Assembly (NCBI RefSeq): GCF_006345805.1
Contig: NC_043009.1
Location: 28,458,001-28,522,000, forward strand
Direction: 5' to 3'
DNA length: 64,000 bases
From: Octopus sinensis
Taxonomy: Eukaryota
Part shown: positions 1,402 to 32,025 of the stretch, in pieces
Position numbering within the stretch: position 1 is the stretch's first letter
Layout of the letters: each line of letters begins with the position of its first letter
Notes under the pieces: generated by a model
The model's input: the letters and a program-made list of their open reading frames with translations, nothing else
What the model was told of the DNA's origin: nothing
The model's database searches: none
Position numbers and translations under genes: made by a program

Positions 1402-1736
1402 CATTCATTTTTATTTAATTCACTTTATTTTCAATCCTTTTTATTCCCTGCATGGTAGCTTAAAAATGAAATTGGTTGAAAAAGACTTTTTTGTTTATAA
1501 ATGTTCGAAAATATTTGGAGAGAAAACATCAAAAATACCTCAAGGGAATTGATGAAACAATTCTTTATTGTAACTGACCAGGTTCATCTTAGTAGAAAGA
1601 TTCTCTGCTGAGATGAAATTGGTGAGTTTCTGTGAGGATATGTACTTTTAATTCCCCAATTCCCTTGATGAAAAATATATATTCTTCAGATGTAGATGCC
1701 TGATGAATGGATTTGGTAGGTGGAAAAGGAAAGAAC

Positions 1737-3185
<1,449 letters not shown>

Positions 3186-3479
3186 CATTGTTGATGTTTC
3201 TATTGTTGTTATATTATTTAAAATTTCTTTTTTTTTTCATCTTTGGTTTAATATTTTCGGATAAAATGAATAAATTCTGTCCTCCCCACCACCCCACTCC
3301 CCATGCATCAACATTTTGAATAGGTTTCATGCTTTGTCCATTAAAGAGAAAAATTAGACCATTCTTAATATACAATGGCTAAAAACTGCAAAGAGTCACG
3401 ATCAGAAAATCACATTAGTCAATTGTTTTGCTATGGTTTAGTATTGTTTTTGTTGTTACTAATTCTATAATTCATAAAT

Positions 3480-3928
3480 ATATATTATATATATATATAT
3501 GTATAGAAGGAGAGAGATATGTATATACATATATACATATATATATATGTATATATATATGTATATATGTATATATATATGTATATATGTATATACACAC
3601 ACAAATGCATATGCATATACATGTGCATACATATGTATATATTCAAGTGCATATGTATAAATATATATATACATACATATATACACATATACATTGATGC
3701 ATATATATATATATATATATACATATATGTATACACACATACACACACATGTATATGCACATACACTCACACCAGCACACATGCACATATAAACACATGT
3801 AGGCACGCACACACACACACACACATATATACATATACAGTGATATAGATAGATAAATAGATACATATACATACATATGAATATATATATTTATGTATGT
3901 ACATATTTATATGTATATATAAATGTAC

Positions 3929-3978
<50 letters not shown>

Positions 3979-4782
3979 GTATATGAATATTCATATATAA
4001 TATAATAGTATTTTTTATCTTTCTTCTGCATTATTGCGAACTTTCACTTGAAATGGTAAAAGAGTGGAAGCAATTTTTTTTTTTCAAAATTTCTATTGAA
4101 ATTTTATTTCTGGAGCTGTTTAGCCTCTGGTGTGTATATTTGAAGTAGAATTTATGGCAAGGCACTACTGAATGGTAGGTATTACAAATAATTAAACATA
4201 CACAAACAGGTTACATATTAAAAGGCATTTCTCCTATGCCCCAATGAATTTTTGCATGTATAGCAATATTTGTGCATGTGTGTGTGTGTATGTATATGTG
4301 TTTATATGTGCATGTGTGCTGGTGTGAGTGTATGTGCATATACATGTGCGTGTATGTGTGTATACATATATGTATATATATATATACACACACACACACA
4401 TGTATGTATGTATGTATATATATATGTGTATGCATTTGTGTGTGTATATATATATATATATATACACACACATATATATATATATAAATATATATATGTA
4501 TATATATATACATACACACGTATGTATATATATATATATATATATTTATGTGTGTGTGCATGTGTATGTACATATACATCTATCTATAAAATAAGTATGC
4601 ATGTATGTATACACACATTTATTAATGTATGTATATATAAATTTATATATACATCTATGTCTTTATGTATATATGTATATATTTATGCATATATAAACAT
4701 AGATATATATACATTTATACATGCAAATATGTATATACATACAGATATCAACACACACGCACATATATATACATCATTGCAG

Positions 4783-4865: not shown

Positions 4866-5427
4866 GTTAGATTTTTGAAATATTCAGAATTAAAAGGTTT
4901 TGAAATTTTTGGAAACTTTTCTGTTTATGATTTATTATTATTTTAATTCAATTATTATGCATTATCACACAATTTACATGTATAGTGATTTTCCCCTTAT
5001 TCCAACAGAGAACAATTTTCTAATTTGTTTAATGTTACCAATGCATTAAAAATTGCATGTTCTTTTGTTTATTTTATTGCTGTTTGTTATATATTGTTTT
5101 TTTTTATTTTGCATTTAATTTATTCGTTCGAATGTTCATTAAATAATTTGTATATTTATTTCAGCTTGGGCTTTGAGAGGTCTGCATTTACTTAAAATAA
5201 ACTTGAAATGTCAATAGATTTTTTTAAAAAAATTATTGCAAGAATTCATGAACTGTTTAGACTATCTGCCTGTCTGCCTGATTGCCAGTTTGCCTGTATG
5301 TCTGTCTGACTGACTGTGTGTCTGTCTGACTGTTGGTCAGTTGGTCTGCTTGTATATGTTTAACACTCTAAGTATAACTCTCTCTTTCTCTCTCCATGTC
5401 TTTTCTGGCTATCTCTCTATATATTAT

Positions 5428-5459
<32 letters not shown>

Positions 5460-5706
5460 TATCCTTGTCATCATCGTCGTTGTTTAATGTCTGCTTGACT
5501 GAGGACTGGCAAGCCAGTAGGCTGCACCAGACTCCAATCTGATCTGGCAATGTTTCTACAGTTGAATGCCCTTCCTAATGCCAATCACTCCTAGAGTGTA
5601 CTGGGTGCTTTTTATGTGCCAACAGCATAGAAACCAGTCAAGTGGGCCTGGCATCAATCACATTTGAATAGTACTTTTTACATGCCACTGGCATGGGTGC
5701 CAGTCA
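5428..5706 (-). mobile_element. RTE-type 3' UTR fragment with (GAT)n tail
   Basis: Homologous to 1-230 (tgcccttcctaa.gccaa.cactc), with an (ATC)n tail on the plus strand. Confidence 0.75.
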
Positions 5707-6223
5707 TACATTACAAATGGTCATGATATCTGGGACTACAAAATCCTGCAAGACCTTCTAAACATTTAAAGAATTATGAACAACAGAAAATGCTTTTCTT
5801 CACAGCCTAGCTACTGAATAGGTGGTTGGTCAAAATGAACTCCAAATTAAAAAGAAAAAGAAAAGAACACACATACATGTAAGTATTTAACACATCATAA
5901 AGATATTACTATATATATATGTATATATATACATATATATATATATAGTAATATCTTTATGATGTGTTAAAAATTGTGGTTGACTCTGGCCAAGGAAGGT
6001 ACCACACTAAAATGAAAAGTTCCATGATGGATTCAAGGGATATCTCAGTTTGCATTGTAACCACTCTGAACCCTTGCTGCAAGGAACACCAAACATGGGT
6101 ACATCTGTACAAAAGAGACAACGATGATTTCTGAATTCTTATGCTTTGTATTGAAGGCCTCATTAAGACCAAATTCTTGTTCAACCTTGAATACCTTTGA
6201 ACCTTTCTCAATCTTAGAAAATT

Positions 6224-6888
6224 ACTATTTTTAAATCCCATAGTGAGAGATATTCAGCAAAAGTGCTTTGGAGTAAAGACTTTTGCCAACTCTCTGCTGC
6301 ATCACCATCATCATCATCATCATTGTTGTCATCGTCGTCATCGTCATCATACGTGTACCACATATATAAAGTGCACTTGTACTTTACTCCTACTTGTGGT
6401 GGCAGCTCCAACCAACACGTTCACCATGTCCCTCATGAATTCTGACCACATCTGATGGCAGTCCTGGTTTGGGACGAATGTTGCTGTAATTTAGCCCCAG
6501 GACTGCCATGTTATGTTGGCAAACAATCTTTGCACCAAAGTACTGTTGCTAAAAATCTCTGTTATGAGATTTAAAAACAGTGATTTTCTAATATATAGAC
6601 CAGTGACTAGTTGTTGCTTTGAAAATTATATATTTCGAACAGGAATTTGGCAGCACCACCTCTAGCCAAACAATTATTCTGTGCTGATGAAGGGAAATAA
6701 CCCGGAAATCATGATACACAGATATTGTTTTGAGCTGAGTGGGGGTGCTAGATTCCCTTGTTCAAAAATATAAAGACACAGACTGTGTCGTATAGCCAGC
6801 TGGGGATGATGTCACCTGGGGATAAATTACAGTAACATTCGTTCTAAACCCGGACTGCCATGTTATGTTGGCAAACAGTCTTTACTCC
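6224..6888. mobile_element. Retrozyme / Penelope-pLTR-like element: 352-nt unit (6500-6851), direct partial repeat (6852-6888) and interrupted inverted arm (6224-6501)
   Basis: ggactgccatgttatgttggcaaaca occurs at 6500 and 6852. 6459-6501 is the reverse complement of 6815-6857, and 6224-6290 is the reverse complement of about 6515-6591. A hammerhead lies at 6678. Confidence 0.7.
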
Positions 6889-7465
6889 TTTCTAAGTCTA
6901 CATAAAACTGAATATGGTACAGCAACTGTTATCTTACACCATCAAATCTATGGATGTTTGGTTTATTATATGAAATGAAGAACTGAGTGTTCAGCTTGCT
7001 TTGAAGAAAAGAATTGCATGTTGCACTTTGTCATAAACGAAGATATAAACTGCAGGAAAGCACTTTAAAAATAATGAATATTCTTTAAAAAAAAGTATTG
7101 CATTTTTGGTCTGACCTAAAAATACACTTTATAAATATGTGAATGGGGGCCAGATGTTAATTTGTAGTCCCAATGATACTCAGAACAGCATCTCTACATC
7201 ACAAGGATGAATGAAGACTATGGCTATGGTGTCTGTGCTATCTGATGCACTTGCTCTCCCAGTGGGGCATTATAGCCTCAACTGTGACTGACCATCAGAT
7301 GTGGTCAGAATTCACGAGGGACATGGTGAACGTGTTGGTTGGAGCTGCCACCACAAGTAGGAGTAAAGTACAAGTGCACTTTTTATATATGTGGTACACG
7401 TATGATGACGATGACGACGATGACAACAATGATGATGATGATGATGGTGATGCAGCAGAGAGTTG
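6287..7465. repeat. Inverted repeat: 6287-6458 vs 7292-7465 (near identical)
   Basis: Direct reverse-complement comparison shows only a couple of differences over about 170 nt. Confidence 0.95.
6678..6722 (+). ncRNA. Minimal type-I hammerhead ribozyme motif, canonical core
   Basis: TCTGTG CTGATGA A GGG AAATAA CCC G GAAA TCATGA TA CACAGA: perfect 6-bp stem I, GGG/CCC stem II, palindromic stem III (ATCATGAT) and an AUA triplet. Predicted cut is 3' of 6716. Confidence 0.85.
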
Positions 7466-7835
7466 AGATGGTGATAACAATGATGATGATAATGAGAAGG
7501 AAGAGGAATAAGAGTAGGAATAGAATATGAAAAAAGAAAGAAGGAGGAGAACACTGATAACGATGATGATGATGATGATGATGATAAGGATGCTGATGTT
7601 AAGATGATGAAAATCACAATAACGACAATGATAAAAACCATCACACAGATGATGGTCACTGTGATAATGATAGTGATGTTGATGATTATGATGTTGATTA
7701 TTACTGAAGGCTCTACCTAAGGGAATTAAGCAATGTTTTCATTAAAACTCTGAGACATACTAAACAAATCAGATACATATATGCACGTACATACATATAC
7801 ATATATATATACACACACACACATGCACACATATG

Positions 7836-7880
<45 letters not shown>

Positions 7881-8569
7881 ATGTATGTATGTATGTATGT
7901 ATGTATATGTACATATATAATAGCTACACAATGTTTCTAAACCTGCTCAGGCCGGGATTAAAATCCAGAGATTTAATTGTATCACTAATTTAATCTCCAC
8001 CAGAATTAATGTCATTAGCATTGCAGAATTTCAATTCTGTCAAATCAGTTAAATTATTAAAAGACATATTAATTAAATCTTCATCAACTTTCTAATCCCT
8101 ACTTAATCCATCAATTATCTTCAGTAATAATGTCGAGCAGACAATGTTAGCTGATTCAGGACTTGGGCAAAAAATAATTCTGCAAGATACAGAGATTTTC
8201 TTTTCATGTTTCTTACAATTCTTAGAAATATGATTCTTTATTATTTATTTCAGTTTTGTTTTGTATTCAGGTGCTGCTGTGTGGTGAAGAACTTTGTTTC
8301 CTAAATAAAGGAATTTGAGTTCAGTCACACATCCTCATGACTATAGCCTCGGATTTCCTAAAGCCATTGGGAGCAAATTTTGGTCAATGGAAATTGTCTT
8401 GTAGTACATTGGCAGCATCATCCTTATTGTTATGGTCATCGATTTGTAAACCCAAATTAGCTCTCGGCAAGCAAATCTGCAATCACAGGCACTCCATCTG
8501 TGCCCATCACACCGTTATTCCTATATGTAGAAAATCCAGGAGCACAGCGTCAAGAACACATTATCCAGT

Positions 8570-8870
8570 ATTTGCACCTAAAAGGTTGCCCCCCAAAAGT
8601 ACAGGTCTGGGTAAGGTTTTTGTGGAAGACCAGCAATCACCCATGCATACCAGTCTCCCTTCCCCACACCACCAATGTTGTCCAAAGGAAAGGCAAAGGC
8701 TGATACAACTTGACACCAGTGATGTCACAACTCATTTTGATAGCTGAGTGAATTGGAGCAACGTGGAATAAAGTGTCTTGCTCAAGAACACAATACACAG
8801 CCTGATCTGGGAATTGAACTCACCATCTCATGATTGTAAGCTCAATGATCTGTCTACACACTATATGCCT
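8570..8870 (-). mobile_element. tRNA-like SINE (family D)
   Basis: Homologous to 45495-45830 (aaataaagtgtcttgctcaagaacacaa...gaactcac). Confidence 0.75.
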
Positions 8871-9154
8871 ATATATAAATATACATATATATATATATAT
8901 ATAATAACAATATAATAAATAAATAAAATATATGCATATATACATACATATATGTACATACTTACGTCTACATGTATATATACCAGCATATATATATATA
9001 TATGAGTGCAGGACACCACAAATAAACATAGAACGAGAAACGAAAACAAAATCAAACAAGGAAACAGACTTTTTTTTAACAACGAAAAAACAGAGTACAG
9101 GACAAACAATACAAGGAAAATGTACACACTCACACACAAACACATATATATATT

Positions 9155-9432
9155 CTTTTTATCCTTTTGTTTCAGTGATTTGACTGCGGCCATACTGGAG
9201 CACCACCTTTAGTCAAACGAATCAACCCCAGGACTTATTCCTTGTAAGCCTAGTACTTATTTTATTGGTCTCCTTTGCCAAACTGCTAAGTAACAAGGAC
9301 ATAAGCACACCAACATCGGTTGTCAAGCGATGTTGGGGGGGACAAACACAGACACACATACACACATATATATGACAGGCTTCTTTCAGTTTCCGTCTAC
9401 CAAACCCACTCACAAGGGTTTGGTTGGTCTGA

Positions 9433-9436
<4 letters not shown>
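9155..9436 (-). mobile_element. SINE family A body (duplicated at about 10168-10450)
   Basis: Homology to 1737-1945. Confidence 0.8.
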
Positions 9437-9471
<35 letters not shown>

Positions 9472-9480
9472 ATATATATA

Positions 9481-9529
<49 letters not shown>

Positions 9530-9563
9530 CATACATACTCACACACATACGAGTATATATAGG

Positions 9564-9845
9564 GATACCAGTAATAATAGGTGCACATGGTGTTGTGAGG
9601 AAATGTCAAAGTGTCAAACTGAATAAACTAGGGTTTTCAGAAAAAAAAAAAAGCAGCCAACTTACTCACAGATTACAAATACATTCTGTAAGCGGAAAAG
9701 GAAAAATATGCAAGACTTTTCTCAGTTTCAAAATGCAGCATTTTCTTTCTAATCCACATTCTAAAGATGGTGCTTTGTATTTTCATTATAAAAACCACTT
9801 TCTTCATTCTTGAAAGACTTAAAAAAAAAATTATAGAACAGAACA
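9564..9845 (+). mobile_element. RLE-type non-LTR retrotransposon 3' end (duplicated at 10581-10862)
   Basis: [14 protein letters not shown]...LGFSEK...KICKTFLSFKM is homologous to IPIIIGALGFVSKCL...KICKTFLKFQM at about 41550-41720. Confidence 0.7.
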
Positions 9846-10448
9846 CGCACATCATCATCATCGTTTAACGTCCATTTTCCATGCTGGCATGCGCACATAT
9901 ATATATATATATATATAATAACAATATAATAAATAAATAAAATATATGCATATATACATACATATATGTACATACTTACGTCTACATGTATATATACCAG
10001 CATATATATATATATATGAGTGCAGGACACCACAAATAAACATAGAACGAGAAACGAAAACAAAATCAAACAAGGAACAGACTTTTTTTTAACAACGAAA
10101 AAACAGAGTACAGGACAAACAATACAAGGAAAATGTACACACTCACACACAAACACATATATATATTCTTTTTATCCTTTTGTTTCAGTGATTTGACTGC
10201 GGCCATACTGGAGCACCACCTTTAGTCAAACGAATCAACCCCAGGACTTATTCCTTGTAAGCCTAGTACTTATTTTATTGGTCTCCTTTGCCAAACTGCT
10301 AAGTAACAGGGACATAAGCACACCAACATCGGTTGTCAAGCGATGTTGGGGGGGACAAACACAGACACACATACACACATATATATGACAGGCTTCTTTC
10401 AGTTTCCGTCTACCAAACCCACTCACAAGGGTTTGGTTGGTCTGAGGC

Positions 10449-10479
<31 letters not shown>

Positions 10480-10480
10480 G

Positions 10481-10546
<66 letters not shown>

Positions 10547-10934
10547 CATACATACTCACACACATACGAGTATATATAGGGATACCAGTAATAATAGGTG
10601 CACATGGTGTTGTGAGGAAATGTCAAAGTGTCAAACTGAATAAACTAGGGTTTTCAGAAAAAAAAAAAAGCAGCCAACTTACTCACAGATTACAAATACA
10701 TTCTGTAAGCGGAAAAGGAAAAATATGCAAGACTTTTCTCAGTTTCAAAATGCAGCATTTTCTTTCTAATCCACATTCTAAAGATGGTGCTTTGTATTTT
10801 CATTATAAAAACCACTTTCTTCATTCTTGAAAGACTTAAAAAAAAAATTATAGAACAGAACACGCACATCATCATCATCGTTTAACGTCCATTTTCCATG
10901 CTGGCATGCGCACATATATATATATATATACATT

Positions 10935-10982
<48 letters not shown>

Positions 10983-11234
10983 CCCACATATATATATATA
11001 TATTTATGCATATATCTTCTGGCAACATCAGGTGGTTGCGTAATTTTGACATGCTACTTCAATGGCTCTTTAGTTTATTCCGTATACAAATATAACGAGT
11101 TGTTTCAATTACTGAATTGGTTGATGGCAAATTAGTAGAAAGAGTAACTAATAGTTGTGACAAACAGACTTCACATAATTTCTGCTCAAAACAGATTTTG
11201 CACACACACACACACAGACATCTGTATGCATATA

Positions 11235-11277
<43 letters not shown>

Positions 11278-11400
11278 ATGTATGTATGTATACACATGCA
11301 CATTATATATGATATATGCATGTATATAATGTATATATGTCTCCCAGTGTTTGTATGTGTGTATATATATACATATATATACACATATATGCAAACATAC

Positions 11401-11439
<39 letters not shown>

Positions 11440-11922
11440 CATATACATACATGTATACATACATATGCACATGTGCACACAAACACACACCTACATATAT
11501 ACGTATGTATGTATACTTTCTCGTTTATTACCTGAGGGTTACACCCACTGGGAAACATGAAATAATTAATTTAAAATGAATATTCGATCATCTAAGTAGT
11601 TTTTCATGTTTATTTTATTCAAGCAATGTTCCCCCACCCCTACAAAAAACACATGCGCACATTCACAAATCCACACACACACACACACATACATGCACAC
11701 ATGCTCACTGCTATTGAAGTTTTATTGTTCTATTAAACTTGATTATTTTTCCCACTCCTTCAGTTATATACCTCTCACCACTACTCATACTCTTTAAAGC
11801 ACTTGCAATGCACTACGTTGCCTTAGAAACACTTTTATTGCTGGTTCCTATATTTCACCTACGCCTATATTTACTTATCAAACAACCTGTGCATGTATGT
11901 ATGTGTGTGTAAGTGTGTAGAA

Positions 11923-12270
11923 GCACAGGTATGGCTGTGTGCTTAAGAGGTTTGCTTCTCAGCCTCATGGTTCTTGGTTCAGTTACACTGTAAGGCAAAT
12001 GACACCTTTTCTACTCTAGGCATAAGGTCCTAAATTTCTGGGGAGGGGGCAGTCGGTTAGATTGACCTCAGTATGCAACTGGTACTTAATTTATTGAAAG
12101 GGTGAAAAGCAAAGTCAATCTTGGTGGAATTTGAACTCAGAATGAAATACCACTAAGTATTTTGCCTGGCATGCTAACATTTCTGCCAGCTCACTGCCTT
12201 AAGGCAAGTAACATCTACTTTAGCCCTAGGCTAACTAAAGTCCCCTGAGTGGATTTGGTGGACAGAAACA
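11923..12270 (+). mobile_element. SINE family A interrupted by an antisense SINE family B (about 12006-12199)
   Basis: The family A head stops at taaggcaa (11991-11998) and resumes at taaggcaa (12200-12207), which looks like a target-site duplication. The insert reads aggcagtgagctggcagaaatgttagc on the minus strand. Confidence 0.7.
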
Positions 12271-12491
12271 ACTGGTATTTAAGCAGAGAGAATGAGTGTT
12301 CAAAAGTGCATTGGTTGAAAAATATTCTTTATTTCTGGGTTAACAAGGCAACCGATGGTTTCATGTGAAGATATCTTCACAATTGTTCAAGCATGTCACA
12401 TGGAGATTTTGGTACTCATCTCCATTTTGGTTGGGAACATACACACACATACATATACACATTCTCTGTTTAGTGCCATGATGATGTTGAC

Positions 12492-12528
<37 letters not shown>

Positions 12529-13020
12529 TGTGTGTGTGTTTATTGGAAGCAGGTAACTTTACTAATTGTTATGCTTAGTGTCAGGTTATTGGTTTTGGAT
12601 GGTAAAAAACTGGAAATTTGAAACTCAGAGTAATACTTTGTGAAAGTTTCAGCTTCCAGTAAATTCAACATAACTCTAAATTTTAAATTCTGTACTCATT
12701 TTCCTCTTTCTTATTTGGACTATTTTTGTACTAAAACATACATACACATATACATACATACATTCATACATAGATACATTCAAAAATATATACATACACA
12801 TATAAACATATATATATTTGGACACTCATAAATATACATAAAATTACATACTTATATATATACATTTATATTTGTGAATGTGGAGATTATAATTCATTGG
12901 TCTAGCTATATCTCTGTCTTTTAGTCTCTTGCTATGTATGTGTGTATAAATGTATGCATGTGTGCACATACACACATCTTTACATATACATGCACATGCG
13001 CATATACACACACAGATGTG

Positions 13021-13067
<47 letters not shown>

Positions 13068-14039
13068 TATATATATTTATATGTATACCCATATATATAT
13101 AAACTCGTTTGTTCTATGGATTTATATATATATATATATATATATGTTTGTATATATTCATATGTATATCCAAATATATACATATATATATACACACATA
13201 TATACATATATCTATATGTTTAAGTATATAGATATGTATATATATATATATATATATATATGGAAATACATACATATGCAGTAGCACCATTTACTTGGAA
13301 ATATTTTTCTTTGTTTGAGTATTTCCAAATTTAGTCATTTCTCCCATGTTCCAAAACTGCCCTTCCCCCATCGCCACACATTTCCACTTCCTTTACCAAT
13401 ATCATTGTCTTTGTTCTTCCAGAAAGTACTTCCTTTTTGATTTTGGTCTCTTCTTGTTCCTGGAGAGTTTGCAAAACAAATATATACGAGTTGAAGGATA
13501 ATCATCCTATTGATTCTTCAACACAAGCAAGAAAGAAAAGAAAGCAATAAGAGGAAGAAAAAAAGAAAAGAAAACGGTAGAAAGAGAAATGGAATGAGAG
13601 AGAGAAAGAGAGAAAGAGAGAGAGAAGGAGTGAGGGAGGGACAGAGAGAAAATTAGTGGACAAGAACCAAAATGTTTTCTCATATCTATACACAGTGGGA
13701 GACTGTAAGAATTATTCCAGTGAGAGCAAACCAGTTCACAAGAGTTGATTGGAAAATGGGTCATTTGTGTTATCTGATTGAAATGGTTTGGTGAAATGAA
13801 TTCTTATGACTCCTGATAAATGTTTATGGCATTTCATTAAAGTACCTCTTCAAGAATATTTCTGCTTGTTCCTATATTGTGCATTTTGCTTTCATGTCTC
13901 TATCAACAGCTTTCCATATTGTCTCTACATTCTGCCTCTTGAATATCAGAGATATCTTCTTTCTGATATTTCTCGCATTGTATTTTATATTTACTCTTTT
14001 TTAAACTCTGTCCAGTCCTTCATATTGTTCTCAATATAA

Positions 14040-14495
14040 GGGGCAGACATTGCTGCATGGTTAAGAAATTTGCATCCTATCCTCTTGGCTTTGGGTTCAT
14101 TTCCCCTGCATGGCACCTTGGGTAGGTGTCTTCTACTTTCCTACTATAATCCCAAGTTGATCAAAATCTTGTGAGTGGATTCAGTTGACAGAAACTGAAA
14201 GAAGCCTATTGAATACATAAGTGTATATGTGTATGCATGTGAGTGCACTTATGTGCATGTGTGTACGTCTTCTTGGCTTGCCATGTGTGATAGTCGTAAA
14301 TGAGCTTCACTGTTATACAAGCTGTGTTATTCATTTCCAATATTCTGCCAAAACATGCTTGGCCATGGGGGAATATTTCCTTGTTTGGAAGCAGGTGTGC
14401 GTTGGCATTTCTCTGCTGTAGAAAATTTGCCTCAATATATTCTGTCTGATCCATGAAATATGGAAAAGTAGACATTAACTGACGACGATGATATG
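14040..14495 (+). mobile_element. SINE family A followed by an RTE-related tail ending in (GAT)n
   Basis: Family A motifs ggcaccttggg..gtgtcttctact and gtgagtggat. The tail ccatg..atatggaaaagtagacattaa.tgacgacgatga resembles the other RTE 3' ends. Confidence 0.6.
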
Positions 14496-14654
14496 AAGAA
14501 GGAGGAGGAGGAGGAGGCGGAAGAAGAGGATTCTGTGTCTTTGGGTGTAGCATTATTGTATCATTTCCTTTTAATTTTTTCAAGACTTTATCACTTGTAG
14601 TAATGGCCAAAATATAAAATGGTATTCTCATCTGTGACAAGGCTGGCCTATCAA

Positions 14655-14865
14655 ATTACAGGTAGAACAGAAACAGGAAGAAAGAGCAAGAGAAAGTTGT
14701 GGTGAAAGAATACAGCAGGGTTCGCTACCCCTACCCCCACCTGAGCTTTGTGGAGATTTAGGGGTTTTCGCTCAATAAACACTCACAATGCCCAGTCTGG
14801 GAATTGAAACTGCGAACCTATGACCGTGAATCTGCTGCCCTAACCATTGGGCCATTGTGTCTCCA
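14655..14865 (-). mobile_element. SINE family C
   Basis: Homologous to 1065-1240. Confidence 0.75.
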
Positions 14866-14867
14866 CA

Positions 14868-15460
14868 ATACAGACAAATACATAAGCAAAAAAGCAGGAC
14901 CTATGAACCTATGTAACACAGCAAAAATAACACTGCTAGGCTCTGCACACATCGTACGCAAAGTACTTTTGATACAGTGAAAATAACAAGACTAAATCAG
15001 ACCGTAGCACATACCCATGGCACACAGAGCCGTGTTTGGTAGTGCAGGGTGAATACGGGATAAAAATAAATTTATTGAATCATATTTTATGAAAAATCTC
15101 AATATAGATTCACCATTTTATTGAAGCAAATATATGAGATATGATCATATAGGATAAAATTAAAAATACTGAAAGATCATAGAGTTTGTAATACCAAATG
15201 ATAACAGAATGGATATGAAAGAAATTGAGAACATTGAAAAGTATGAGAACATAGCCAGTGGGATGAAGGGATTGTGGAAAGACTAAGATGATGATTACTT
15301 CAGTGGTACAAAACCCAAACTGCTACCTAAAGGTTGAAGGAAACTAGAACTGAGAAACATTGCTGGGCTGCAGAAAAGTGTTATCTTTTATTCTGTAAGA
15401 ATCCTAACAAAGATTCTTGAGACTTGAGGAGATTTGTTGTTACCATAGATTATATCAGGA
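14868..15460 (+). mobile_element. Two RLE (R4/Dong-like) 3' fragments (14868-15078 and about 15200-15460)
   Basis: The first is homologous to 57090-57300 (KITLLGSAHIVRKVL plus 3' UTR). The second gives a degenerate KEIEN.EKYE...KGLWK...LQKSVIFYSVRILTKILE. Confidence 0.65.
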
Positions 15461-15789
15461 AGAAGGTCATCTAAGCTCTTTTTGCAGCTATTCTGCATCC
15501 GAGATTTCTTTTATTTTCTATAAAATACCAACTCAAATGGTGCTTCAAAGTTTGTTTATAAAAATATCAAGATAAAATCCCTTTTAACAGAATTAGTATT
15601 TTTATGGTTCCAATAATGGTTTCTAATTTAAACACAATGCTAACAGTTTTAAGAAGAGATTAGTCGATATCATTGGTTCCAGTATTTGACTGGCACTTTA
15701 TCTTATTGAATTTGAAAGGAAGCAAAGCAAAATTAACTTTGGCAGCATTTTGAGTAAAAAATGTGAAGGGCCAGAACAAATACTGCATT

Positions 15790-16395
15790 GTTTTTCTTCT
15801 GATGTTCTGATGCTGAAGAATGGAGAACTTAAGAAAGAAACACAAGGACTCATAATGGCTGCCCAAAGCCAGTCATTGTGGACAGACATCATGAAAGCAA
15901 AAATAGTCAACTTTGCAAGAAGTGTATGTATGTAATGAGAAAGAGTAATATCCATTATGCATGTAATAAATCCCCGTGATCCTTTGGCACAGAAGGAATA
16001 TGGACATGGACAGAGTTGGGTGGTCAAGGCACTACACTGGAATATATTACAGCAAAAAGGACTTGAAGTAGGAAGAAAATGGCACTAACATCAAGTGGTA
16101 AGGATTCTGCCAGTTCAATACTTGCGTTATTATAATAATGGTAATAATAATAATGATAACAATAATGATTATGATGATGATGATGATGATGATGATGATT
16201 ATGATTATGATATTTATCTCGAGAAGTATGTGGAACAAATAGGGGTTATAATAAGGGTGAAGCACTTGCAGAAAACAGCACTGCTTGGAACTGCTCGAAT
16301 ACTCCAGAAGGTGCTTGAAAAATAAGAGGTGTTACCTTAGTTCGCTTGTAGTGAACAGCTGACACCATAATGCATCTCCATCATTAGAAGCTGTG
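15790..16395 (+). mobile_element. RLE non-LTR fragments: post-RT/zinc-knuckle region (15790-16080) and another family's 3' end (16213-16395)
   Basis: LKNGELKKETQGLIMAAQSQSLWT...LAQKEY...KALHW, and YLEKYVEQIGVIIRVKHLQKTALLGTARILQKVLEK*. Confidence 0.7.
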
Positions 16396-16911
16396 CAAAG
16401 GAAAAACAGACACGACAGAGTTGGGACCTACATACACTGGAAGCTATGCCAACACTATAGAATAACAACAGAAAAAAGATGGTATAGATACACGCCAGAA
16501 AAGGTCACAGAAAACGAGAAAGCAACCATACTCTGGAATATGACAATACACACAGATAGAGAAATTAAGGCCAATAGGCCTGATATAATTGTCAGAGATC
16601 ATGAAAAAAAAATGCTTTCTAATCGATGTAGCAATACCAGCAGATGACAACGTTTCTCTAAAAAAATGGATAAACTTTCAAAATACAAAGACCTGGAAAT
16701 AGAGGTAACTCGAATGTGGAATCTAAAAACAGAAACAATTCCTATCATAGTAGGAACATGAGGTATGATAAGAAAAAATATTCAGATAAATGCATAGCAA
16801 AAGCACCAGAACTAACAAGTACATATAACATACATAAAATAGCACTACTAGGAACCACAGAACTGTGCACTGTAGTGCAGAGTCAGCATGTGATAAAATA
16901 AAACTACTGAA
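16396..16911 (+). mobile_element. R4/Dong-like non-LTR retrotransposon 3' fragment (restriction-like endonuclease region), followed by (TAA)n
   Basis: RHDRVGTYIHWKLCQHY...ILWNMTIHTDREIKANRPDIIVRDH...LIDVAIPADDN...KYKDLEIEV contains the RHD and PD-(D/E) RLE motifs; frameshifted. Confidence 0.9.
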
Positions 16912-16931
16912 TAATAATAATGATAATAATA

Positions 16932-16979
<48 letters not shown>

Positions 16980-17011
16980 TAATAATAATAATAATAATAA
17001 TGATGATGATT

Positions 17012-31471: not shown

Positions 31472-32025
31472 TCTTTTATTCTTTTACTTGGTTCAGTCAT
31501 TTGACTGTGGCCATGCTGGAGTATGGCCTTTAGTCGAACAAATCGACCCCAGGACGTATTCTTTGAAAGCCTAGTACTTATTCTATCAGTCTCTTTTGCC
31601 AAACTGCTAGGCTACGGGTGACATAATCACACCAACATTAGTTGTCAAACGACAGTGGAAGTACAAATATAGACACACAAGCATTATACATATATATATA
31701 TATATATATATATAAATTGTGCAAATGTCTTCTACTATAGCATCAGGCTGACCAAAGACTTGTGAGTGGATTTGGTAGACGGAAACTGAAAGAAGCTGGT
31801 CATATACATATATGTGTGTGTGTGTATTTGTGTGTCTGTGTTTGCTTCCCCACCATCACTGGACAACTGATGTTAGTGTGTTTACATCTCCATAACTTAG
31901 CAGTTTGGCAAAAGAGACTGATAGAATAAATACTAAGTATACAAAGAATAAGTCCTGGGGTCGATTTGTCCGACTAAAGACACTGCTCCAGCATGGCCTC
32001 ACTTAAATGACTGAAGCAAATAAAA
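31472..32025. mobile_element. Inverted pair of SINE family A copies (31472-31680 minus, about 31720-32025 plus)
   Basis: ttagtcgaacaaatcgaccccaggac (about 31530) is complementary to gtcctggggtcgatttgtccgactaa (about 31952). Confidence 0.8.

What the first reader, a model, noticed from the sequence alone, without database searches (positions are those of the whole stretch)
6500..6888. 352-nt direct-repeat unit containing one intact hammerhead: a candidate retrozyme monomer
Seen: the 26-mer ggactgccatgttatgttggcaaaca recurs at 6500 and 6852 (period 352), and the unit contains one canonical-core hammerhead (6678-6722, AUA triplet, palindromic ATCATGAT stem III) and no ORF in the supplied track. 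Known: non-LTR retrozymes are non-coding tandem monomers of a few hundred nt with one type-I hammerhead each, expressed as circular RNAs and probably mobilised by Penelope-like RT. A 1.1-mer with terminal redundancy is what reverse transcription around a circle would leave. Inference: this is a genomic copy of a circular-RNA retroelement of about 350 nt, or a partial tandem pLTR.
Basis: partly seen in the sequence, partly recalled or inferred. Interest (0 to 1): 0.75.

Follow-up and report, generated by a model that had tools for sequence, protein, structure and literature searches.

The report
Penelope-inserted hammerhead retrozyme, two-armed copy
This is one aged copy of an abundant, non-coding 350-base jumping repeat that carries a hammerhead (predicted self-cutting RNA) motif; its copies land as two back-to-back arms in the pattern of Penelope-type retrotransposons, which likely supply the copying enzyme, so it is a new member of a known class.

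Summary
Observation confirmed: the 26-mer recurs exactly at 6500/6852 and a type I hammerhead motif lies at 6678-6722. The element is larger than reported: one head-to-head insertion, 6215-6888, whose inverted left arm ends in a 55-nt tail. The '1.1-mer' is a full unit plus a 40-nt stub of the previous unit. It belongs to a family of thousands of candidate copies (353-nt unit, no coding partner found). Copies are not permuted: 133 of 164 arms end at one of two fixed sites. Of 44 resolved inverted insertions, 42 have one arm ending at each site, and 29 show target-site duplications (7 of 400 controls). This is the published Penelope-like insertion signature. Two sister families keep the hammerhead through compensating changes. 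Best reading: a non-autonomous, Penelope-mobilised retrozyme; a circular template is likely but unshown (about 0.5). This copy has only one hammerhead and could not excise a circle. Cleavage, expression and the helper enzyme remain untested or unfound. The scan already reported this architecture on other DNA of this genome.

The parts
6204..6214 (+). Left copy of a degenerate target-site duplication (9 of 11 identical to 6889-6899)
   Evidence: Read from flanks; automated score 7, just under my cut-off of 8, so inferred by analogy with the family
6215..6269 (-). 55-nt tail (unit positions 1-55) ending the inverted arm at the family's downstream fixed 3' end (TAIL site)
   Evidence: 89% to family majority sequence; left junction spanned without differences by a contig of DNA run X17 (same study as the best holder, not independent)
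6270..6290 (-). Unit positions about 335-353 of the inverted arm
6287..6463 (-). 177-bp foreign insert inside the inverted arm: inverted copy of 7286-7465, joined by short microhomologies; likely a later templated repair event
   Evidence: 97.8% identity; only these two places match at length in G000 among 33 scored
6455..6502 (-). 5' part of the inverted arm (unit positions 279-326); overlaps the direct arm by 6 nt at the head-to-head centre
   Evidence: 98% to family majority sequence; overlap
6497..6536 (+).
6537..6888 (+). Full 352-nt unit ending at the upstream fixed 3' end (END site), no tail
   Evidence: 92% to the majority of 53 full units; predicted fold z = -6.0, 0 of 100 shuffles as good
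6678..6722 (+). Type I hammerhead motif with 2-pair, palindromic stem III; predicted cut 6716/6717; sits at the tip of a predicted long hairpin (about 6628-6775)
   Evidence: 10 of 17 pairs change on both sides between families A and B with core unchanged
6889..6899 (+). Right copy of the degenerate target-site duplication
7286..7465 (+). Flanking host DNA that served as donor of the 177-bp insert (not part of the element)

Best explanation
The locus is one head-to-head insertion (6215-6888) of an abundant, non-coding 353-nt hammerhead-bearing repeat family, likely a non-autonomous retrozyme copied by the reverse transcriptase and GIY-YIG endonuclease of a Penelope-like element encoded elsewhere. 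Inferred cycle: a tandem donor locus is transcribed; two hammerheads pair through their palindromic stem III and cut out a unit-length RNA that is likely circularised; the borrowed enzyme makes a staggered cut (about 9-14 nt) in AT-rich DNA; both nicked strands prime cDNA, one at the END site and the other at the TAIL site 55 nt downstream; synthesis can run past the unit junction (here by 40 nt); the two cDNAs are joined by microhomology. Shown: family, fixed ends, arms, TSDs, conserved ribozyme fold. Inferred: helper enzyme, cleavage, circle. Odds: identity and Penelope-type insertion about 0.9; circular template about 0.5.
For: Family: 3,119 candidates, 40 scored, best full-length matches 85-91%. 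75 distinct loci (90 fetched, 15 duplicates dropped): 164 arms, 68 end at END, 65 at TAIL, 31 elsewhere; 5' ends variable. 59 of 75 insertions are head-to-head; of 44 with both ends resolved 42 END/TAIL, 2 END/END, 0 TAIL/TAIL (p 6e-11 against 0.5, 16 of 18 in the set not selected for a tail, p 7e-4). TSD score of 8 or more in 29 of 44 versus 7 of 400 shuffled flank pairs. 31 of 60 centres overlap by 1-7 nt. Younger sister family B (352 nt) repeats the rule: 14 END/TAIL, 1 TAIL/TAIL, 2 unresolved of 17 inverted. Hammerhead stems differ between families with pairing kept, and stem III is a different palindrome in each of three families. Tandem copies in one arm share rare variants at 3.9/kb against 0.55/kb between loci. 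No PLE coding sequence is collinear with any of 75 loci. Literature: inverted pLTR, 8-10 bp TSD and a tail on one arm (PMC3846280), tail = stretch between two RT start sites, both strands cut and extended (PMC11167929), 330-350 nt axolotl retrozymes with a similar weak hammerhead form circles (PMC7229834).
Against: No helper found: a profile of the three families matched no terminal repeat of the coding PLE copies examined. No pile-up of 5' ends exactly at the cut site; starts near it are spread over positions 165-200 and a second cluster lies at 211-222. Shared variants in tandem copies fit a homogeneous linear tandem as well as a circle. In the window itself the END unit and the inverted arm share one variant that the stub lacks, which a single circular template would not give. 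Some dimers are near-identical (4-7 differences in 345 nt against 22-26 in others), so part of the tandem structure arose by later local duplication. In vitro, PAc needed no ribozyme cleavage and showed no strand difference in start site (PMC11167929); 8 of 9 Xenopus retrozyme dimers did not cleave (bioRxiv 10.64898/2026.07.22.740005). Loci are top scorers, biased to long, young copies.
Confidence: 0.7

Rival explanations
1. Same element and same Penelope-type insertion, but the template is a linear read-through RNA of a tandem donor (or is extended by template jumps); the hammerhead is kept for another step or as a passenger, and no circle is needed.
For: Fixed 3' ends unrelated to the cut site (3 of 164 arms near it); 16 of 43 unselected arms contain the whole uncut hammerhead; the window's one informative variant is shared by END unit and inverted arm but not the stub; ribozyme cleavage dispensable for PAc in vitro (PMC11167929).
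Against: Family-wide, upstream stub and terminal unit share more variants (6 plus 1 in all three) than terminal unit and opposite arm (2) in 23 loci; unit length stays 352-353 nt in families A and B, whose majority sequences are only 192 of 359 identical, as would be expected if a unit-length RNA is the selected entity; related retrozymes do form circles (PMC7229834).
Confidence: 0.35
2. The unit is the terminal repeat (pLTR) of a coding Penelope-like element; the copies are its 5'-truncated stubs.
For: The anatomy is that of pLTR insertions (PMC3846280, PMC8557442); intact RT + GIY-YIG elements exist in G000 and one family carries a minimal hammerhead in both terminal repeats. Only a small share of candidates was scored.
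Against: In 75 loci the sequence upstream of unit position 1 is the previous unit or a truncation junction, never shared coding DNA; the only tblastn hit is an endonuclease fragment beside L092 and the shared flank found is an unrelated abundant repeat.
Confidence: 0.08
3. The 26-37 nt repeat is a target-site duplication or a local tandem duplication around an unrelated insert.
For: Length is within the range of long TSDs; later local duplications do occur in the family.
Against: The repeat is internal family sequence present at every unit end; a separate degenerate TSD flanks the whole two-armed structure.
Confidence: 0.02

Closest known systems
Metazoan non-LTR retrozymes (Cervera and de la Pena 2020, PMC7229834; Li, Clavereau and Pollet 2026, bioRxiv 10.64898/2026.07.22.740005)
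   Same: Non-coding unit of about 350 nt, low GC, one type I hammerhead per unit, monomers and short tandems, co-occurring PLEs. The hammerhead resembles axolotl HHR_Amex2 (2-pair stem III, mismatch at the base of stem II, 350-bp unit).
   Different: Mostly dispersed 1-2-unit, two-armed insertions rather than long arrays; insertion footprint (TSD, tail, inverted arm) is measured here, whereas the parts of those papers that I read argue for the PLE link from co-occurrence and pLTR homology. No expression, cleavage or circle shown; no homologous pLTR found.
Insertion units of endonuclease-bearing Penelope-like elements (Arkhipova et al. 2013, PMC3846280; Craig et al. 2021, PMC8557442)
   Same: 5' truncation, partial tandems, inverted 5'-truncated copy, short TSD, optional tail on one end, hammerhead in the repeat.
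   Different: No ORF; tail is 55 nt (43-46 in family B) rather than 30-40; the whole unit, not an ORF-flanking repeat, is the tandem monomer.
PAc (Poseidon of Anolis carolinensis) in vitro mechanism (Frangieh et al. 2024, PMC11167929)
   Same: Two fixed internal RT start sites bounding the tail; both strands primed; AT-rich targets.
   Different: There the start site did not differ between strands; here the two arms of one insertion almost always use different sites. There the hammerhead overlaps the ORF start; here there is no ORF.

Membership tests
Non-LTR retrozyme | Non-coding unit of a few hundred nt | tested here: met
   353-nt unit from 53 full copies; longest ATG ORF in the window unit 50 aa; no PLE protein match
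Non-LTR retrozyme | One type I hammerhead per unit, conserved fold | tested here: met
   67 core-intact motifs in 75 loci; 10 of 17 pairs changed on both sides between families A and B, in effect one event per pair; no Rfam hit at gathering score
Non-LTR retrozyme | Tandem copies with at least two hammerheads | tested here: met
   Met by the family (dimers and a 3.4-mer), not by this locus, which has one hammerhead; some dimers look like later local duplications
Non-LTR retrozyme | Self-cleavage of the RNA | not testable with these tools
   Needs in vitro transcription
Non-LTR retrozyme | Accumulation as unit-length circular RNA | not testable with these tools
   Only assembled contigs were available; they cannot show ends, strand or circles
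Penelope-like element insertion (footprint) | Fixed 3' ends with optional tail, 5' truncation | tested here: met
   133 of 164 arms end at two sites 55 nt apart
Penelope-like element insertion (footprint) | Inverted 5'-truncated copy and short TSD around the whole | tested here: met
   59 of 75 inverted; TSD 29 of 44 vs 7 of 400; the window's own TSD is degenerate, score 7
Autonomous Penelope-like element | ORF with RT and GIY-YIG endonuclease between the repeats | tested here: not met
   None in the window or collinear in 75 loci
Non-autonomous partner of a named PLE clade | Sequence shared with the terminal repeat of a coding element | tested here: inconclusive
   No match in the coding copies examined; only 132-150 of 5,000-17,000 candidates per search were scored

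The most novel reading that the evidence does not exclude
These insertions record an asymmetric two-primer reaction: a Penelope enzyme dimer primes the two cut strands at two different, fixed sites of a ribozyme-made RNA circle, one arm always with the tail and the other without. That would be direct footprint evidence that animal retrozyme circles are substrates of Penelope enzymes and would explain the one-sided tail of Penelope insertions.
Probability: 0.35. Interest if true: 0.65.

Novelty: new member of a known kind. Interest (0 to 1): 0.36.

Why it matters
The class is known and this copy is an aged, probably dead insertion. The value lies in the family: how retrozymes are mobilised and how Penelope elements build their inverted ends are both open in the papers read, and a 350-nt ORF-free substrate with two mapped start sites, a near-strict one-tail-per-insertion rule and three diverged families with a shared 3' motif makes both questions testable in a purified system. 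The tail-on-one-end pattern is described qualitatively (PMC3846280, PMC8557442); I did not find it quantified or shown for retrozymes in 8 literature searches. Repbase and Dfam could not be searched, so the family may already carry a name.

Tried and rejected
RNA evidence: no RNA holder listed; three runs guessed to be RNA hold many family-like contig pieces, but contigs cannot show ends, strand or level and DNA or intronic copies may explain them; not used for or against. Rfam: no hit. Whole-window repeat finder was swamped by microsatellites. Helper search: RVT_1 family search returned unrelated RT loci; GIY-YIG search and 30 fetched regions gave coding PLEs without matching ends; apparent hits beside PLEs (L075, L077, L197, L204) were sister-family insertions beside the coding copies, not their terminal repeats; an endonuclease family that I judged Hydra-like by eye had no hammerhead core or match in its 3' majority sequence. 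'Two arms come from two different RNA molecules': suggested by family A (1.2 vs 3.9 shared variants/kb, p 0.004) but not by family B (5.6 vs 5.9); left open. The window's ATCATGAT palindrome as compensatory change: rejected, both differences from the family majority are CpG-type and 14 of 67 copies have it. 5' ends marking the ribozyme cut: not supported at base precision; two junctions at position 181 are explained by stem I self-complementarity. TSD test in family B is uninformative because it inserts in TA tracts (null 180 of 210). A tRNA A-box-like reading of the conserved 3' motif was considered from memory and not tested. Supplements of PMC8557442 (clade and hammerhead lists) were not opened and those of the bioRxiv preprint were not seen; they may list this family or its helper.

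Full report
Observation. The 26-mer is exact and occurs only at 6500 and 6852; the hammerhead core and helices are at the stated coordinates. A scan requiring three helices finds only this motif in the window, against 0.025 expected. The unit folds far better than shuffles (z -6.0), with the hammerhead at the tip of a long hairpin. Rfam does not score it.

Family. The window is G000:C13:28458001-28522000 in a 2.72-Gb animal genome; microsatellite-rich and probably an octopus, which is my inference and the wording of earlier scan notes, not a tool result. Three DNA searches gave 2,476-4,033 candidates each, 40 scored each. Of 90 loci fetched, 75 are distinct. They hold 53 full units with a 353-nt majority sequence, median identity 93.8%; the window copy is 92%. 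Most common differences are CpG transitions.

Anatomy of insertions. Of 164 arms, 68 end at the unit end (END), 65 run 55 nt further (TAIL), 31 end elsewhere, 3 within 10 nt of the ribozyme cut. 5' ends vary. 59 of 75 insertions are head-to-head, 16 direct only. In 44 with both ends resolved, 42 are END/TAIL, 2 END/END, none TAIL/TAIL; 15 have an unresolved end. In the set selected for a tail the other arm was END in 16 of 16; in the set not so selected 16 of 18 were mixed. Flanks show duplications of mostly 9-14 nt in 29 of 44 against 7 of 400 random pairs, so each two-armed structure is one event. 31 of 60 centres overlap by 1-7 nt.

This locus. Left end 6215 (TAIL, minus strand), centre 6497-6502, stub 6497-6536, full unit 6537-6888 (END), degenerate TSD 6204-6214 / 6889-6899 (9 of 11; score 7, below my cut-off). 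The inverted arm is interrupted by a 97.8% copy of flanking DNA 400-580 bp to the right; being closer to its donor than the element is to its family, it is likely a later repair insert. With one hammerhead the locus cannot excise a monomer.

Sister families. Matches beside coding PLEs led to two more families in G000: B (352 nt, 96-100% to its majority, TA targets, tail 43-46 nt; 28 distinct of 30 loci) and C (older; 20 loci). B shows 14 END/TAIL, 1 TAIL/TAIL, 2 unresolved, 11 not inverted. Majority sequences of A and B are 192 of 359 identical, yet the core is unchanged, 5 of 6 stem I pairs are swapped on both sides, and stem III is a different palindrome in A, B and C (two families count as about one event per pair). 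Selection has kept a hammerhead predicted to work as a dimer, as described for short palindromic stem III motifs (PMC4209133, passages; PMC7229834, sections 15 and 17 and passages).

Circle or linear template. Stub and next unit in one arm share rare variants (24 in 6,166 bp, 36 loci) well above between-locus background (0.55/kb); opposite arms share fewer (8 in 6,531 bp, 54 loci) in A (L010 left out) but equally many in B. A three-way test in 23 A loci gave 6 stub+unit, 2 unit+opposite, 1 stub+opposite, 1 all three. The window was not among these 23; its single informative site is of the unit+opposite kind, against one circle. Some dimers are later local duplications. 5' ends do not pile up at the cut. 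Net: compatible with a circle, not proof; about even odds.

Helper. G000 has intact RT + GIY-YIG ORFs and one coding family has a minimal hammerhead in both terminal repeats, but no examined family shares sequence with the unit. No coding sequence is collinear with 75 family loci. The helper is inferred from the footprint only.

Comparison. The footprint matches Penelope-like insertions (PMC3846280, passages; PMC8557442, passages), and the two fixed ends match the two RT start sites of PAc (PMC11167929, parts 1-2 of 4), except that PAc showed no strand difference in start site. Unit size and ribozyme match metazoan retrozymes, which a 2026 preprint derives from PLE terminal repeats (bioRxiv 10.64898/2026.07.22.740005, parts 1-3 of 5). 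It works like a retrozyme and meets the sequence criteria; cleavage and circles are untested. Earlier notes of this scan describe the same architecture and the two-site rule on other pieces of this genome; I had stated my reading before seeing them, and they are not independent support.

Verdict. Real, non-coding, Penelope-type mobile element; new member of a known kind; interest 0.36. The quantified one-tail-per-insertion rule is the part worth following up.

Noticed in passing
window 6287-6463 and 7286-7465: 177-bp inverted templated insert inside the element's arm, copied from DNA 400-580 bp beyond the insertion, with microhomology at both joints; likely later repair.
   Followed up: partly
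window 5886-5971: 86-bp near-perfect palindrome (95%) centred on a TA tract, 240 bp left of the element.
   Followed up: no
L010:1854-3140 (G000:C10064): At least 8 tandem copies of unit positions 194-353 (about 165 bp), lacking the hammerhead: a satellite born from the element.
   Followed up: partly
L075:5252-5570, L143-L172; L077:3545-3920, L173-L192: Sister families B and C: same unit size and fold, TA-tract targets, about 2,000 and 3,300 candidates; a ~70-nt motif downstream of the hairpin is the most conserved part across families.
   Followed up: yes
L204:1160-1877: A fourth, more distant relative with an atypical hammerhead-like core, inserted in a TA tract in the same two-armed layout.
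   Followed up: no
L201:1291-5851, L202:1584-6570, L079:4632: Young coding PLE family (775-aa RT + GIY-YIG ORF, many intact copies) with a minimal hammerhead in both direct terminal repeats; several copies carry a changed core base.
   Followed up: partly
L043, L211-L240: Abundant decayed GIY-YIG family that looks Hydra-like by eye; no hammerhead core in its 3' majority sequence.
   Followed up: partly
window 1736-1835, 9167-9317, 10180-10330, 31477-31638, 31869-32025: Five copies of an unrelated, very abundant ~160-bp interspersed repeat.
   Followed up: no
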